A stretch of 32,000 nucleotides of DNA. It comes from Candidatus Hermodarchaeota archaeon (GTDB taxonomy: Archaea > Asgardarchaeota > Heimdallarchaeia > Hodarchaeales > Hodarchaeaceae). Under the pieces are notes generated by a model. It was given only the letters and a program-made list of their open reading frames with translations, was not told the origin of the DNA and ran no database searches. This document shows positions 1,951 to 31,999 of this stretch, piece by piece. The first letter of the stretch is position 1. Each line of letters opens with the position of its first letter. The DNA is taken from the NCBI GenBank assembly GCA_048886185.1, contig JBHLKY010000012.1, positions 37,981-69,980 on the forward strand. Direction: 5' to 3'. Made by a program: the position numbers and the translations under genes.

Positions 1951-1955
1951 CTAGA

Positions 1956-1963
1956 TTTTTTTT
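1956..1963 (+). terminator. Archaeal oligo-T terminator candidate after parA
   Basis: T8 run starting 6 nt after the TGA. Confidence 0.4.
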
Positions 1964-2032
1964 AGAGACTACTTAAATTAAGATATCTTTTAAATAGACT
2001 CGTGTGTTAGCTGAAATCTAGGAAGATGAGGA

Positions 2033-2608
2033 GTGTATGTCCTTAAGACCTTCTCAAAACTCTTTTTGAGTCCCAGAGGTTTCTTTAAGACTAGCACACG
2101 TTTAAAAGATAGAGTGAAGGCTCAAGAACTATTTCAGCAAGTAGTAGACTCCGATAAAAGTGGGCATTGGTTGACAATTACAGCACATCTCAATCTTGTT
2201 GAACTTCTTCTCTCTGAAGCTAAATAGATTGGAGACGATGATGTATTTCGAGAGGCTAAATCACGAGTCAATAATCTTAGTGAAATAACAAATGATCAAA
2301 AAATTGTTGATCTGGAGATTAACACTTTAATTCTTCAAGCTCAATTTGAAGTTATTGAAGGAAACTTCACAACAGCTATGGAATTATTGGCCAATGCGAT
2401 AACAACAGCTAAGAAAAATGATCTAAACTTATTAATTGCAAAAATAACTGAAATTAAAAGTCGAATTGAAGCTGAATTAAAGAAATGGGAAATTCTTTTT
2501 CAACGTAACGCATTTCTTCAAGAGCGACTAGAACAAGCACGTTTTGAACGATATATAGAAGAACTAAAGAAGTATATCACTCATGTGACTAGATTCGGTA
2601 GCGGATAG
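2033..2608 (+). pseudogene. Helical-repeat (TPR-like) C-terminal module interrupted by one in-frame TAG; probably 5'-truncated
   Basis: ORFs 2033..2227 and 2378..2608 share a frame. The only break is TAG 2225-2227: LLSEAK*IGDDDVFREAKSRVNNLSEITNDQKIVDLEINTLILQAQFEVIEGNFTTAMELL... Confidence 0.7.
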
Positions 2609-2616
2609 ATTATCAT

Positions 2617-29479: not shown

Positions 29480-31999
29480 TTATTCCAGACCTTCTCTTTT
29501 CAGCGACTCGAGAGCTTCCCTGATGTAAGCATGAAGCATCCGTTCCTGTTCTTCAGGAGATAGAGGCTTTTCACTTTCAAGAATGGCTGATACTTGCTGC
29601 TTGTGAATAGCCAATGTGTCTAATTCTTTTAAAGCCTGATCACGGTAAATAACTAGGTTATTTTCCTCTGCTGTTCGTAAACACTTGTTAAGCCACTCCT
29701 CCACTTTGTCAAACTGGACAGATGCGAAAGCAATCTGGGAACGGAGGAAGTATCCTTGGCAGAGGCTGGCATGCTGCAAATTAATTTCACAGTCCTCTAG
29801 CCATTCATCCAGCTGGCTTATCAAGAATTTAGGGGGAGTAGTATCGGGATTATCAAGCCAGTTCCTAACAGCAAACCCAGCCAACGATCCTTGGCATTTT
29901 ATCTGAAATTCTTTACTCAATACACCGATATCGAGAGCTGCCTGCCACGCCTGATTGGCTAATCCCCAATTCATTTCATTTTCCGCTAATAGGGCCTTAA
30001 TCATCTGGTCGATGGCTTCAACAACGGGTTCTTTCCACGGTGAAGGTGGGAAGCGCTTCAGAATCTCACTATCCATTTCCAATTCACGAGTTTCTTTCAT
30101 AACGCTAGCCATCCTAAATATTGTTTCAGCAACCAAGGATTTGCTATCCACACGATCAAAAACCGCGAGAGCTTGTCCGTACAAATTTTTAGTCCTAGTT
30201 GGATCACCCTGATAGTATGCAGCAGTACCATCCTCTACCAGTTTCTGTGCACCAGAAATTGCTCTTATATATTCAAAGTAATCTATATAATTCGATTGCA
30301 CGATTTTTAACGCTGTCTGGTAATCTGGCGCTTTCAAACGCGCAGTGAGGAGCATTTGTTTCTCTCTTCTCCGTTTTAACATTGAGAAAACAGCTACAAT
30401 GCTTATCAATAGAAGTAATAATCCTACCAGTGCATGGAAAATGCTGAAACTTAGTAATGGAACACTCCAGAAGTTTTTTGGGTTGGTTCCCGCCCGGAAT
30501 TCATCAACATTCATGACCCAATCCCCATCTGAATCAATCCATGCATCATTTGGATTAGTAGCATTAAAATCATTCTGGTATTCCCAGAGGTTAGTCATGC
30601 CATCATTATCCGCATCACCACTAGCATCATTTGGATCAGAAGCGTTAAGCTCGTGGATGGCTTCGTACTGATTGACCATGCGGTCTTCATCCTTATCAAG
30701 TAAAGCATCATTGAAATTTGTTGCATCGAGGCCGTGATAGTACTCATAGAGATTATTCATCAAGTCATTATCCTCATCGAGCCATGAGTCATTAATCTGG
30801 GGATTAAGCCCGTGTTTGTATTCAAAGTCATCAGGCATACCATCTAAGTCACTATCACTCTGATTAGCCCAGCTCCCGTAGTGGAACTCCTGCAAGTTAG
30901 TCAAACTATCTCCATCCTTGTCTCCAACTCCATCATCGTGCCATGGATCCAATCCCATCTGGTATTCATACAGAGCTGTAATATAATCGCCATCGCTATC
31001 AGTATCATTATCGGGAACAGCAGGATCAGTACCAGATAGGTGTTCCCATCCATCAGGCATTCCATCGCCATCAGAATCTCTTTCTAGGGGATTGCTTCTC
31101 CGGAAATACTCCAAGCTGTTCATGAGTCCATCATTATCCTGATCATTAAACTTATCCCAGAAGTCAACTGGATCAAGGTTGTATTCAGATTCCCAATTAT
31201 CAGGCATTCCATCCAGATCTCCATCTGGATTTGCATTAACGTTCCAGAGTTTGATATTACCATTATTATCACTCGAGACCAGAGTATTCCCATCAGGAGA
31301 GAAATCGATTGAAAAAACGGAAGCAGCAGGGATATAAATCGTTTTAATTGGTGATTTTTCTCCATTGGTCAAGTTCCAGAGCTGGATTACGCCTTCAATA
31401 TTCCCTGCAGCTACCAAATCTCCACCAGGTGAAATCGCTACTGAACTTATCGCGCCGCCTTGTCCTTCCAGCTTTGTAAAGTTCCCGTTTGTAACGTCCC
31501 AGATCCTTACAATGCTATCTGAGCCACCTGAAGCCAAGTGCTCCCCATTGGGCAAAAAAACTACAGATCTAATATATGCTTCGTGATCATTCAAGGTTCT
31601 TATTGGTTGCCTACTTGTGATATTCCAAATAATGATGGTAGAATCCCAGCTTCCTGAAGCCAATAACGAACCATCAGGAGATAATGCTAGGCTACTAACA
31701 TCATAACTATATCCTTCTAGGGATGGTAATAATTCTTTTTCATCAGTAACATTCCACAGCCTGATAGCATTTTCTGGGCGATAGCTTCCAGACATTACAA
31801 CCGTTCCATCAAGCGAAAAAATAACGGGCCATACGGCCATAGTATTAGCATGATGTGCAAGAGGAGAAGCTGGGGGGGGTAATTCTATTCCCTCGGTCAC
31901 ATTCCAGAGCCTAACAGTAGTGTCCCGGCTACCTGAAACTAACAGCTTACCATCAGGTGAAAAGGCAACTGAATGAACTGCAGCATCATGACCTGCCAA
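29480..31999 (-). CDS. Receptor-like membrane protein: WD40 repeats + 10 TSP3-like Ca-binding repeats + TM + cytoplasmic TPR-like helical domain; 5' end beyond the window
   Basis: Six WD40 repeats in the window; the first codon is TTG read as internal Leu (LAGH). DxDxDGxx(D/N)xxE repeats x10; TM LLSFSIFHALVGLLLLLISIVAVFSML + KRRREK; helical C-terminal ~295 aa. Confidence 0.85.
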   Translation of the reverse strand: MAGHDAAVHSVAFSPDGKLLVSGSRDTTVRLWNVTEGIELPPPASPLAHHANTMAVWPVIFSLDGTVVMSGSYRPENAIRLWNVTDEKELLPSLEGYSYDVSSLALSPDGSLLASGSWDSTIIIWNITSRQPIRTLNDHEAYIRSVVFLPNGEHLASGGSDSIVRIWDVTNGNFTKLEGQGGAISSVAISPGGDLVAAGNIEGVIQLWNLTNGEKSPIKTIYIPAASVFSIDFSPDGNTLVSSDNNGNIKLWNVNANPDGDLDGMPDNWESEYNLDPVDFWDKFNDQDNDGLMNSLEYFRRSNPLERDSDGDGMPDGWEHLSGTDPAVPDNDTDSDGDYITALYEYQMGLDPWHDDGVGDKDGDSLTNLQEFHYGSWANQSDSDLDGMPDDFEYKHGLNPQINDSWLDEDNDLMNNLYEYYHGLDATNFNDALLDKDEDRMVNQYEAIHELNASDPNDASGDADNDGMTNLWEYQNDFNATNPNDAWIDSDGDWVMNVDEFRAGTNPKNFWSVPLLSFSIFHALVGLLLLLISIVAVFSMLKRRREKQMLLTARLKAPDYQTALKIVQSNYIDYFEYIRAISGAQKLVEDGTAAYYQGDPTRTKNLYGQALAVFDRVDSKSLVAETIFRMASVMKETRELEMDSEILKRFPPSPWKEPVVEAIDQMIKALLAENEMNWGLANQAWQAALDIGVLSKEFQIKCQGSLAGFAVRNWLDNPDTTPPKFLISQLDEWLEDCEINLQHASLCQGYFLRSQIAFASVQFDKVEEWLNKCLRTAEENNLVIYRDQALKELDTLAIHKQQVSAILESEKPLSPEEQERMLHAYIREALESLKREGLE
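31872..31879. repeat. G8/C8 homopolymer within the WD40 gene
   Basis: tggggggggt at 31871-31880; encodes LPPP. Confidence 0.9.

What the first reader, a model, noticed from the sequence alone, without database searches (positions are those of the whole stretch)
29480..31999. Receptor-like protein: extracellular WD40 propeller, Ca-binding stalk, TM and cytoplasmic TPR-like domain
Seen: WD40 x6 or more, then ten DxDxDGxx(D/N)xxE repeats, one TM with a positive-inside KRRREK, then ~295 helical residues with no recognisable enzyme motif. Established: WD40 propellers are typically cytoplasmic scaffolds. Inference: a single-pass signalling receptor that transmits through a helical adaptor domain, a eukaryote-like design without a kinase.
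Basis: partly seen in the sequence, partly recalled or inferred. Interest (0 to 1): 0.65.

Follow-up and report, generated by a model that had tools for sequence, protein, structure and literature searches.

The report
Exported WD40 receptor-like protein, TPR tail
An Asgard (Hodarchaeales) archaeon makes a single-pass surface protein with two WD40 propellers outside the cell and a TPR scaffold inside; its family swaps the outer domain and sits next to genes for anchored surface binding proteins, so it looks like a kinase-less receptor or co-receptor, but no function has been shown.

Summary
The ORF runs off the window. The full gene (1280 aa) has a signal-peptide-like N-terminus, 14 WD40 blades (2x7), ten TSP3-type Ca-binding repeats, one TM helix followed by KRRREK, and a 298-aa tail. 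AlphaFold models the tail with high confidence (pLDDT 93.6) as a TPR solenoid.

The topology is ectodomain out, tail in. This rests on flanking charges, N-glycosylation sequons confined to the ectodomain, and sister proteins that carry a solute-binding protein (SBP_bac_5) in place of the WD40 array.

The genome has four paralogs. Among 400 Asgard genomes, the tail was found only in the window's own genus (14 of 21 sister species).

New here: the constant module is last TSP3 repeats + NPxDFWSVP + TM + TPR tail. The ectodomain is exchangeable (WD40, SBP_bac_5, beta-helix). WD40-type genes usually lie directly downstream of a gene for a C-terminally anchored surface protein. That partner is SBP_bac_5 in five clades and a beta-sandwich protein in the focal clade.

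The best reading is a kinase-less transmembrane receptor or co-receptor. A structural surface-coat or adhesion role is the main rival. Signalling is inferred, not shown. First readers of this scan had already noted two paralogs on another contig of this genome.

The parts
31235..31999 (-). WD40 blades 9-14 (residues 442-696). This is the in-window part of a 14-blade (2x7) exported WD40 array. Residues 1-441 (signal peptide and blades 1-8) lie beyond the window end, at L008:3981-5303.
   Evidence: Pfam WD40 E 2e-123. 14 FSPDG markers spaced about 42 aa apart. Five WNx[ST] sequons at blade ends 431-649.
30500..31225 (-). Ten TSP3-type acidic Ca-binding repeats (residues 700-941), the stalk.
   Evidence: Motif scan. 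Pfam TSP3_bac 25.1 bits against cut-off 25. NCBIfam MtsD and CglD TSP3 regions E 1.5e-12 and 2.4e-5, below their cut-offs.
30458..30484 (-). Conserved juxtamembrane motif NP(K/R)(N/D)FWSVP (residues 947-955).
   Evidence: Conserved in the four paralogs and in alignment A2. Also present in the SBP-type members, which align with the focal protein from about residue 838 onward at about 40% identity.
30377..30457 (-). Single transmembrane helix (residues 956-982; hydrophobic peak at 964-982).
   Evidence: Kyte-Doolittle 19-residue window 2.87. Followed by KRRREK.
29483..30376 (-). Cytoplasmic tail (residues 983-1280). It holds the KRRREK stop-transfer, an LxAPDYxTA motif and a TPR solenoid with the signature AE.E.NW..A..AW..AL.
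   Evidence: No Pfam match. AlphaFold pLDDT 93.6, 14 helices. Foldseek best matches are LGN/Pins, KLC and Rap TPR domains. VIA Z 15-10 to TPR proteins. Profile search against PDB hits consensus TPR at E 1.7e-6. Atlas gives TPR_12 clusters.
29480..29482 (-). Stop codon.

Best explanation
This is a type I single-pass cell-surface glycoprotein of a Hodarchaeales (Asgard) archaeon.

Shown by sequence or computation:
- A signal peptide exports a 14-blade double WD40 propeller.
- Ten TSP3 Ca-binding repeats hold the propellers off the membrane.
- One TM helix links the ectodomain to a 298-aa cytoplasmic TPR solenoid.
- The protein belongs to a genus-restricted family. The module 'last TSP3 repeats + NPxDFWSVP + TM + TPR tail' is constant, and the ectodomain is exchangeable (WD40 double propeller, SBP_bac_5, beta-helix).
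- WD40-type genes usually lie immediately downstream of, and co-oriented with, a gene for a C-terminally anchored surface protein. That partner is SBP_bac_5 in most clades and a beta-sandwich, adhesin-like protein in the focal clade.

Inferred mechanism: the propellers act as an extracellular docking platform for the co-encoded anchored protein, or for that protein bound to its ligand. Occupancy or clustering is passed through the single TM helix to the TPR tail. The tail has no enzyme domain, so it would recruit cytoplasmic partners. Candidates are the expanded soluble TPR proteins of the same lineage that share this TPR module; some of them carry HisKA/HATPase or CN-hydrolase domains.

In short, this would be a kinase-less receptor or co-receptor that works through an adaptor domain.
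For: Architecture and topology.

Four paralogs in the genome share the architecture.

The profile search found 73 clusters at E<1e-30, nearly all signal peptide + WD40 + TSP3 + TM + tail.

The same tail occurs on other ectodomains. SBP_bac_5 carries it in P0020 and in eight sister-genome proteins, at about 40% identity to focal residues 838-1271. A NosD beta-helix carries a truncated tail in P0121. On a tail tree the SBP-type members form one clade nested among the WD40-type members.

Gene pairing. An anchored SBP_bac_5 gene lies directly upstream on the same strand, with gaps of 11-148 nt, in loci L015, L017, L030-L035, L043 and L049. In L044 it is divergent. These loci fall in five separated tail clades. 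No ABC permease genes were seen in the flanks fetched.

Rosetta-stone link. The best non-self match of the SBP fused to the tail is the anchored SBP encoded next to a WD40-tail gene in L043, E 2.6e-180.

In G000 all four paralogs have an anchored surface protein directly upstream: two SBP_bac_5, and two of one unnamed beta-sandwich family. The background rate of such anchored proteins is about 4% of genes, and the genome has about 21 SBP_bac_5 genes.

The tail is a TPR fold. It is homologous to soluble TPR_12/MalT-like proteins of the same lineage, including one with HisKA + HATPase_c at E 1.5e-49.

The same genome also has beta-helix + TM + MarR/wHTH proteins, so pairing an ectodomain with a cytoplasmic output across a single TM helix is a local theme.
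Against: No cytoplasmic partner gene is consistently linked. Downstream neighbours vary. The TPR-CN_hydrolase gene is adjacent in only 2 of about 16 loci.

The focal gene's own neighbour is not an SBP. It is an adhesin-like beta-sandwich protein, which fits a structural or adhesive role equally well.

The signal peptide and topology rest on hydropathy, charge and sequon statistics, not on a dedicated predictor or an experiment. Glycosylation is not shown.

The loci in sister species are related by descent, so the counts overstate independence.
Confidence: 0.5

Rival explanations
1. It is a structural surface-coat or adhesion protein. The glycosylated propellers on a Ca-stiffened TSP3 stalk would form part of the amorphous protein coat that replaces an S-layer in Asgard cells, or would mediate cell-cell or cell-substrate adhesion. 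The TPR tail would merely anchor or organise the protein on the cytoplasmic face, for example to the cytoskeleton or a membrane scaffold.
For: The TSP3 region resembles the Myxococcus cohesion and gliding proteins MtsD and CglD. The focal neighbour is a multi-domain beta-sandwich protein whose best fold matches are integrin alpha chains (very low TM-scores; which domains align was not checked) and Gram-positive adhesin domains. The genome encodes about 154 C-terminally anchored surface proteins. Cultured Asgard cells show an amorphous coat and no S-layer proteins (10.1101/2025.11.06.686947; PMC11284389). Sequons are enriched in the ectodomain.
Against: A 298-aa tail that is at least as conserved as the ectodomain is not needed for anchoring. 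In the focal orthologues the tail is 80% and 66% identical, against 73% and 63% over the whole protein. The same tail is fused to a ligand-binding SBP. The family has only 1-5 copies per genome and is absent from 7 of 21 sister species.
Confidence: 0.3
2. It is a nutrient-capture scaffold. The WD40 platform would hold anchored SBPs at the surface to feed transporters. The tail would couple to, or regulate, an uptake system rather than signal.
For: Anchored SBP_bac_5 genes are the commonest partners. In the cultured Asgard archaeon P. syntrophicum, the main N-glycoprotein is an extracellular SBP thought to serve oligopeptide transport or chemoreception (PMC11284389).
Against: No Opp/Dpp-type permease or ATPase genes lie beside the pairs in the flanks fetched. 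The ABC genes upstream of the focal locus include an ABC ATPase, a second ATPase-like ORF and a 12-TM ORF, and no SBP. The focal clade's partner is not an SBP.
Confidence: 0.12
3. It is a cytoplasmic WD40 scaffold, as the database name 'eIF2A-related protein' implies, with an inverted or no membrane topology.
For: NCBI names an orthologue 'eIF2A-related protein'. WD40 proteins are usually cytoplasmic.
Against: There is an N-terminal signal-like segment and a TM helix with +6 charge on the tail side. Ca-binding TSP3 repeats are present. Sequons occur only outside the tail. A sister clade carries an SBP ectodomain. In this genome WN at blade ends occurs only in the WD40 proteins with a signal segment and TM (35 of 44 are WNx[ST]), and never in the three cytoplasmic ones.
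Confidence: 0.03

Closest known systems
Bacteroides hybrid two-component sensors with a periplasmic double beta-propeller (Reg_prop/Y_Y_Y type, e.g. BT4663). This comparison rests on my own knowledge.
   Same: Two seven-bladed propellers outside the membrane, one TM helix, and a cytoplasmic transducing part.
   Different: Their propellers are Reg_prop repeats, not WD40. Their output is a histidine kinase, receiver and AraC domain. Here the tail is a TPR solenoid with no enzyme or DNA-binding domain.
Plant CRINKLY4 (ACR4) receptor kinases.
   Same: An extracellular WD40-type propeller on a single-pass receptor (bioRxiv 10.1101/2020.08.10.245050, found).
   Different: They have one propeller plus a cysteine-rich domain, and a cytoplasmic kinase. 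They are eukaryotic. No homology beyond the repeat type was tested.
SBP-coupled sensors (LuxP-LuxQ, TorT-TorS, BvgS with fused periplasmic binding domains). This comparison rests on my own knowledge.
   Same: A solute-binding protein is either a separate partner of a membrane sensor or is fused to it. Both forms occur in this family.
   Different: Those sensors are histidine kinases. Here the partner SBP is itself membrane-anchored and the sensor has a TPR tail. Interaction is inferred from gene order only.
Myxococcus TSP3-repeat surface proteins MtsD and CglD.
   Same: Arrays of thrombospondin type 3 Ca-binding repeats in a surface protein.
   Different: The matches are far below the family cut-offs (46 against 800 bits; 22 against 400 bits). 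Those proteins have no WD40, TM or TPR arrangement.
TPR_12/TPR_10-type peptide-binding TPR domains (LGN/Pins, kinesin light chain, RNPP regulators Rap/NprR/PlcR).
   Same: The fold of the tail: Foldseek E about 3e-3 with TM-score 0.40-0.47, and VIA Z 13-15.
   Different: Identity is only 6-14%. The scores are in the range typical of any helical repeat. None of these domains is tethered to a TM helix.
Integrins (an analogy of working principle only).
   Same: A propeller-bearing, Ca-binding, glycosylated ectodomain, a single TM helix, and no enzymatic tail, with signalling through adaptors.
   Different: Integrins are heterodimers with FG-GAP propellers and short tails. There is no sequence relationship.

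Membership tests
WD40 repeat (PF00400) | Tandem repeats of about 40 aa matching the WD40 profile above the gathering score, in a number sufficient for a closed propeller. | tested here: met
   398 bits against a cut-off of 27, with 12 scored stretches. 14 blade markers.
Bacterial TSP3 repeat (PF18884) | An acidic DxDxDGxxDxxE Ca-binding repeat that matches the profile. | tested here: met
   25.1 bits against a cut-off of 25, which is marginal. Ten motif copies at residues 700-941 (nine by pattern, one by eye). Ca binding was not tested.
TPR superfamily (TPR_12 / MalT-like TPR) | Helix-turn-helix repeats forming a solenoid, with sequence or profile similarity to TPR families. | tested here: met
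   There is no direct Pfam hit. However, the tail profile retrieves TPR_12/TPR_MalT proteins at E down to 1e-49 and consensus TPR in the PDB at E 1.7e-6. The model is a 14-helix solenoid with Z 10-15 to TPR proteins.
Type I single-pass membrane protein | A cleavable N-terminal signal peptide, one TM helix, N-terminus out and C-terminus in. | tested here: inconclusive
   Hydropathy, positive-inside charge, sequon distribution and the SBP swap all agree. Cleavage of the signal was not tested, and no dedicated predictor was available. An uncleaved signal anchor would still leave the ectodomain outside.
eIF2A (name given to an orthologue by NCBI) | A soluble cytoplasmic translation factor with a beta-propeller and a C-terminal helical domain, and no signal peptide or TM helix. 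| tested here: not met
   A signal-like segment, a TM helix, TSP3 repeats and ectodomain-restricted sequons are present. The name reflects generic propeller similarity.
Hybrid two-component propeller sensors (Reg_prop + HisKA/HATPase) | Reg_prop repeats and a cytoplasmic histidine kinase. | tested here: not met
   There is no HisKA, HATPase_c or Reg_prop match in the protein.
Protocoatomer-like (beta-propeller followed by alpha-solenoid) | The propeller and the solenoid lie in one soluble polypeptide on the same side of the membrane. | tested here: not met
   The domain order is propeller then solenoid, but they are separated by TSP3 repeats and a TM helix and lie on opposite sides of the membrane.

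The most novel reading that the evidence does not exclude
This family is the membrane-spanning core of a signalling system specific to Hodarchaeales. A glycosylated, exchangeable ectodomain (WD40 double propeller or SBP) would work with a co-encoded anchored binding protein. It would relay occupancy through one TM helix to a TPR tail. The tail would then assemble soluble TPR effectors of the same module family (histidine kinase, CN-hydrolase and others). That would be an adaptor-based, kinase-less receptor logic not described in prokaryotes.
Probability: 0.2. Interest if true: 0.8.

Novelty: new variant of a known kind. Interest (0 to 1): 0.6.

Why it matters
Hodarchaeales are among the closest known archaeal relatives of eukaryotes. 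What covers their S-layer-less surface, and how they sense partners or nutrients, is largely unknown.

This family gives a concrete, testable set of surface proteins:
- exported, sequon-rich canonical WD40 propellers, which are an unusual location for this fold;
- a conserved TM-plus-TPR module reused on different ectodomains;
- a conserved pairing with anchored solute-binding proteins, including a fused form.

If the coupling is real, it would be a transmembrane signalling design without a kinase in a lineage relevant to eukaryogenesis. If it is not, the family is still a likely major component of the surface coat.

One caution follows. Structure-only screens could mistake this propeller-then-solenoid order for a protocoatomer, which it is not.

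Tried and rejected
1. WD40 fused to CN_hydrolase. Frames of 1264-1286 aa with the CN-hydrolase-like end turned out to be long soluble TPR proteins. The TPR-CN_hydrolase gene is adjacent to a tail gene in only two loci, so it remains a lead only.

2. A four-Cys metal site in the tail. Four Cys are invariant in the four paralogs, but only one is at least 90% conserved in 34 sequences. The idea was dropped.

3. The window 2030-2608 remnant as a receptor tail. It is a stop-split C-terminal fragment of a soluble TPR protein. Read through with X at the stop, it scores E 1.5e-28 to such proteins and only about 3e-4 to the tail profile.

4. An anchored propeller as a regular partner of the SBP-type members. 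An anchored Kelch propeller next to an SBP-type gene was seen once (L036). The other SBP-type loci lack one.

5. A specific structural relative of the tail. Foldseek found nothing at E<=0.001. VIA scores are in the range common to helical repeats.

Adjacency of the focal orthologues P0003 and P0004 to their beta-sandwich neighbours is therefore inferred only from matching longest-contig lengths (10055 and 168906 nt).

7. Literature searches found no description of this family.

8. No SignalP or DeepTMHMM was available. Model coordinates could not be read, so conserved residues were not mapped onto the tail.
Full report
**1. What is at the coordinates**

Window 29480-31999 holds a minus-strand ORF that runs off the window end. 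The window is G000:C12:37981-69980, in a 4.84-Mb, 75-contig genome.

Taking more of the contig (L008) gives the whole gene, L008:1461-5303(-). It encodes 1280 aa from a GTG start. An identical 1280-aa protein is on record, and orthologues at 73% and 63% overall identity are named as coming from Candidatus Hodarchaeales. Other family members are named Hodarchaeales, Heimdallarchaeota or Promethearchaeota.

**2. Anatomy**

| Residues | Feature | Evidence |
|---|---|---|
| 1-25 | Basic n-region plus hydrophobic core, then SGS | |
| about 95-696 | WD40, Pfam E 2e-123; 14 FSPDG blade markers about 42 aa apart, i.e. two seven-bladed propellers | |
| 700-941 | Ten acidic DxDxDGxx(D/N)xxE repeats; TSP3_bac at threshold; MtsD and CglD TSP3 regions below their cut-offs | |
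| 947-955 | NPKNFWSVP motif, conserved across the family | |
| 956-982 | The only strong internal hydrophobic segment | |
| 983-988 | KRRREK | |
| 983-1280 | Tail; no Pfam match | |

Only blades 9-14 lie in the window.

**3. Topology**

Across 73 family members with a TM helix, the mean net charge of the 12 residues before the TM is -0.2, and after it +3.0.

N-x-S/T sequons occur at 1.75 per 100 residues in ectodomains, against 1.12 expected from composition. In tails they occur at 0.30, against 0.46 expected.

In the focal protein all 11 sequons lie between residues 432 and 920. None is in the first propeller or in the tail.

Many blades end in WNx[ST] instead of WD. This holds for 237 of 367 WN ends in the family.

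The genome has only about ten WD40 proteins. In the seven with a signal segment and a TM helix, 35 of 44 WN ends are sequons. The three cytoplasmic ones have no WN at all.

N-glycosylation at N-X-S/T is documented in a cultured Asgard archaeon (PMC11284389). It has not been shown for this protein.

The strongest topology argument is independent of these statistics. A sister clade carries SBP_bac_5, an extracytoplasmic fold, in place of the WD40 array on the same TM helix and tail.

**4. The tail**

AlphaFold2 was run with a 34-sequence alignment. It gives a confident all-helical model: pLDDT 93.6, pTM 0.86, 14 helices.

Foldseek's best PDB matches are TPR domains of LGN/Pins, kinesin light chain, Rap and SNAP. 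E-values are about 3e-3 and TM-scores 0.40-0.47. VIA-align gives Z 15-10 to TPR proteins: TSK, APPBP2, LGN, PlcR, NprR, Rap and APC subunits. These values are typical of helical repeats, so they identify the fold class and not a specific relative.

A profile of the four paralog tails hits consensus TPR in the PDB at E 1.7e-6. The ESM Atlas returns TPR_12 clusters.

The family signature is AE.E.NW..A..AW..AL, plus a Cys, two further Trp and a C-terminal Tyr that are nearly invariant.

**5. The family**

The genome has exactly four members: C12 (the focal gene), two on C19, and one on C7. All have the same architecture. Tail identities to the focal protein are 32-45%.

A profile search of 1.84 billion representative proteins gives 73 clusters at E<1e-30. 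Nearly all full-length ones are signal peptide + WD40 + TSP3 + TM + tail.

Two further classes also match:
- Proteins with the same tail but another ectodomain. P0020 has SBP_bac_5 (E 2e-82). P0121 has a NosD beta-helix plus TSP3, with a truncated tail.
- Soluble TPR_12/MalT-like proteins of 460-810 aa that match most of the tail. One of them carries HisKA + HATPase_c (E 1.5e-49).

So the tail is a membrane-tethered copy of a TPR module that is greatly expanded in this lineage. Searching with one 836-aa TPR-CN_hydrolase member gave mostly 1-15 matches per genome in 20 of 21 sister genomes.

Among 400 genomes of the phylum, the tail (E<=1e-20) occurs only in the window's own GTDB genus. It is in 14 of 21 sister species and in 0 of 379 other genomes.

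**6. The constant module and the ectodomain swap**

The SBP-type proteins (1039-1050 aa, in eight sister genomes) align with focal residues 838-1271 at about 40% identity, E about 1e-100. That stretch covers the last TSP3 repeats, the FWSVP motif, the TM helix and the tail.

On a tail tree they form one clade nested among the WD40-type members, which indicates a single ectodomain replacement.

**7. Gene neighbourhood**

I fetched 20 homologous loci from 14 sister genomes and listed their ORFs.

WD40-type genes are usually preceded, on the same strand and after only 11-148 nt, by a gene for a 580-800-aa protein. That protein has a signal segment, a C-terminal TM anchor (often PGF-like) and a basic end.

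Pfam identifies the upstream protein as SBP_bac_5 in L015, L017, L030, L031, L032, L033 (two copies), L035, L043 and L049. L034 is the counterpart of L033, judged from ORF length and C-terminus. In L044 the SBP gene is divergent.

These loci fall in five separate clades of the tail tree and involve two SBP subtypes. No Opp-type permease genes lie in the flanks fetched.

The SBP that is fused to the tail in P0020 has, as its best non-self match, the anchored SBP encoded next to a WD40-tail gene in L043 (E 2.6e-180). The same SBP kind is therefore either fused to the tail module or encoded beside a WD40-tail gene. This is a Rosetta-stone pattern.

In G000, two paralogs (C19B and C7) have SBP_bac_5 directly upstream. 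The other two (the focal gene and C19A) have members of one unnamed family (E 1.6e-36 between them).

The focal neighbour (621 aa) folds as a string of beta-sandwich domains (pLDDT 84). Its best Foldseek matches are integrin alpha chains and Gram-positive adhesin domains, at very low TM-scores.

About 4% of genes in G000 encode C-terminally anchored proteins (154). The genome has about 21 SBP_bac_5 genes. Four anchored neighbours out of four, and two SBPs out of four, are therefore unlikely by chance, at roughly 3e-6 and 1e-4. The loci in sister species are related by descent and do not count as independent.

Orthologues of the focal gene and of its neighbour have matching longest-contig lengths in two other assemblies (10055 and 168906 nt), which suggests they share a contig.

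**8. Interpretation**

Shown:
- the architecture;
- strong indirect evidence for ectodomain-out, tail-in topology;
- the TPR fold of the tail;
- the modular exchange of ectodomains on a constant TM and tail module;
- the conserved pairing with anchored surface proteins;
- the restriction to one genus.

Inferred:
- the propellers dock the co-encoded protein or its ligand complex;
- the tail recruits cytoplasmic partners.

The presence of a ligand-binding SBP on the same tail speaks for sensing or coupling rather than mere anchoring. So does the conservation of the tail, which in the focal orthologues is 80% and 66% identical against 73% and 63% for the whole protein. The same genome also encodes beta-helix + TM + MarR/wHTH proteins, which look like membrane-tethered regulators.

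Against signalling, no cytoplasmic partner is consistently linked. The focal clade's partner looks like an adhesin. Asgard cells carry an amorphous protein coat with no S-layer, and this protein could simply be part of that coat.

I put the receptor or co-receptor reading at about 0.5, the structural or adhesive reading at 0.3, a nutrient-capture scaffold at 0.12, and a cytoplasmic protein at 0.03.

**9. Comparison with known systems**

The protein works most like single-pass sensors with propeller ectodomains (Bacteroides hybrid two-component sensors, plant CRINKLY4) and like SBP-coupled sensors (LuxPQ, TorTS, BvgS). It lacks their kinase.

It is a member of the WD40, TSP3 and TPR repeat superfamilies only. 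It is not eIF2A, whatever the database name says. It is not protocoatomer-like, because the propeller and the solenoid lie on opposite sides of the membrane.

I found no paper describing this family.

**10. Verdict**

This is a real, well-defined, uncharacterised and lineage-specific family. It is a new variant of a known kind, the single-pass receptor-like surface protein, with two unusual features:
- exported, sequon-bearing canonical WD40 propellers;
- a reusable TM-plus-TPR module paired with anchored binding proteins.

Interest is 0.6.

First readers of this scan had noted the same protein and, on another contig of this genome, two paralogs with the shared tail.

Noticed in passing
window 1951-2616 (remnant at 2030-2608, + strand): In sister genomes (L033, L034, L035, L049) an anchored-SBP plus WD40-tail gene pair sits next to the MinD-like and 181-aa genes. 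In L034 the hydroxyacyl-CoA dehydrogenase and epimerase genes lie on its other side. In this genome that slot is only about 660 bp. It holds a stop-split C-terminal fragment of a soluble TPR protein (E 1.5e-28 to paralogs when read through with X), not a receptor remnant.
   Followed up: partly
L008:5439-7301 (-), 1.4 kb beyond the window end: The 621-aa neighbour of the focal gene has a signal segment, two repeated all-beta units, a Thr-rich linker and a PGF-CTERM-like anchor, and no Pfam match. AlphaFold gives pLDDT 84. The fold is a string of beta-sandwiches; its best matches are integrin alpha chains and Gram-positive adhesin domains, at very low TM-scores. Paralogs lie on C2, C52, C31 and upstream of the C19A paralog.
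   Followed up: partly
G000:C2:75778-87840 and other contigs: About 11 of the roughly 21 SBP_bac_5 genes match the Pfam profile in permuted order (profile positions 147-365 first, then 2-141). This suggests circularly permuted solute-binding proteins. Six lie in tandem on C2. Several partners of WD40-tail genes are of this type.
   Followed up: no
L050:382-2664 (-), L051:216-1901 (+), L052:217-1953 (+): These are single-pass proteins with an extracellular NosD/beta-helix domain, one TM helix and, in two of the three, a cytoplasmic MarR-type winged helix. They look like membrane-tethered transcription regulators. They are encoded next to anchored beta-helix and beta-sandwich surface proteins.
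   Followed up: partly
L053:2544-4952 (-) = G000:C4:218543-220951: Another exported WD40 protein (803 aa, all six WN blade ends are sequons) has a TM helix and a different 214-aa cytoplasmic tail. That tail has sub-threshold zinc-ribbon and RING-like matches. The gene is convergent with an anchored VWA-domain protein. Two further exported WD40 proteins (on C14 and C3) have only a C-terminal anchor.
   Followed up: partly
G000:C7:19271-21778 (+) and C2:290673-293405 (-): These are the genome's only two TPR + divergent CN_hydrolase proteins. One lies directly downstream of the C7 WD40-tail gene. The other lies about 450 nt downstream of two beta-sandwich surface-protein genes on the same strand. 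The same arrangement is seen in L046. It is a possible cytoplasmic partner, but only 2 of about 16 tail loci have it.
   Followed up: partly
G000 genome-wide; C7:165684-166007 and C8:72080-72403: About 154 proteins have a single C-terminal TM anchor with a basic end, and 48 of them have a PGF-like motif before it. Only two weak, sub-threshold archaeosortase A-like matches exist (30 and 24 bits against a cut-off of 75). The sorting enzyme, if there is one, is divergent.
   Followed up: no
L038:147-3413 (+): A 1089-aa anchored protein with WD-like and DxDxD motifs but no Pfam match lies about 1.3 kb upstream of an SBP-type tail gene, on the same strand, with one opposite-strand ORF between them.
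   Followed up: no
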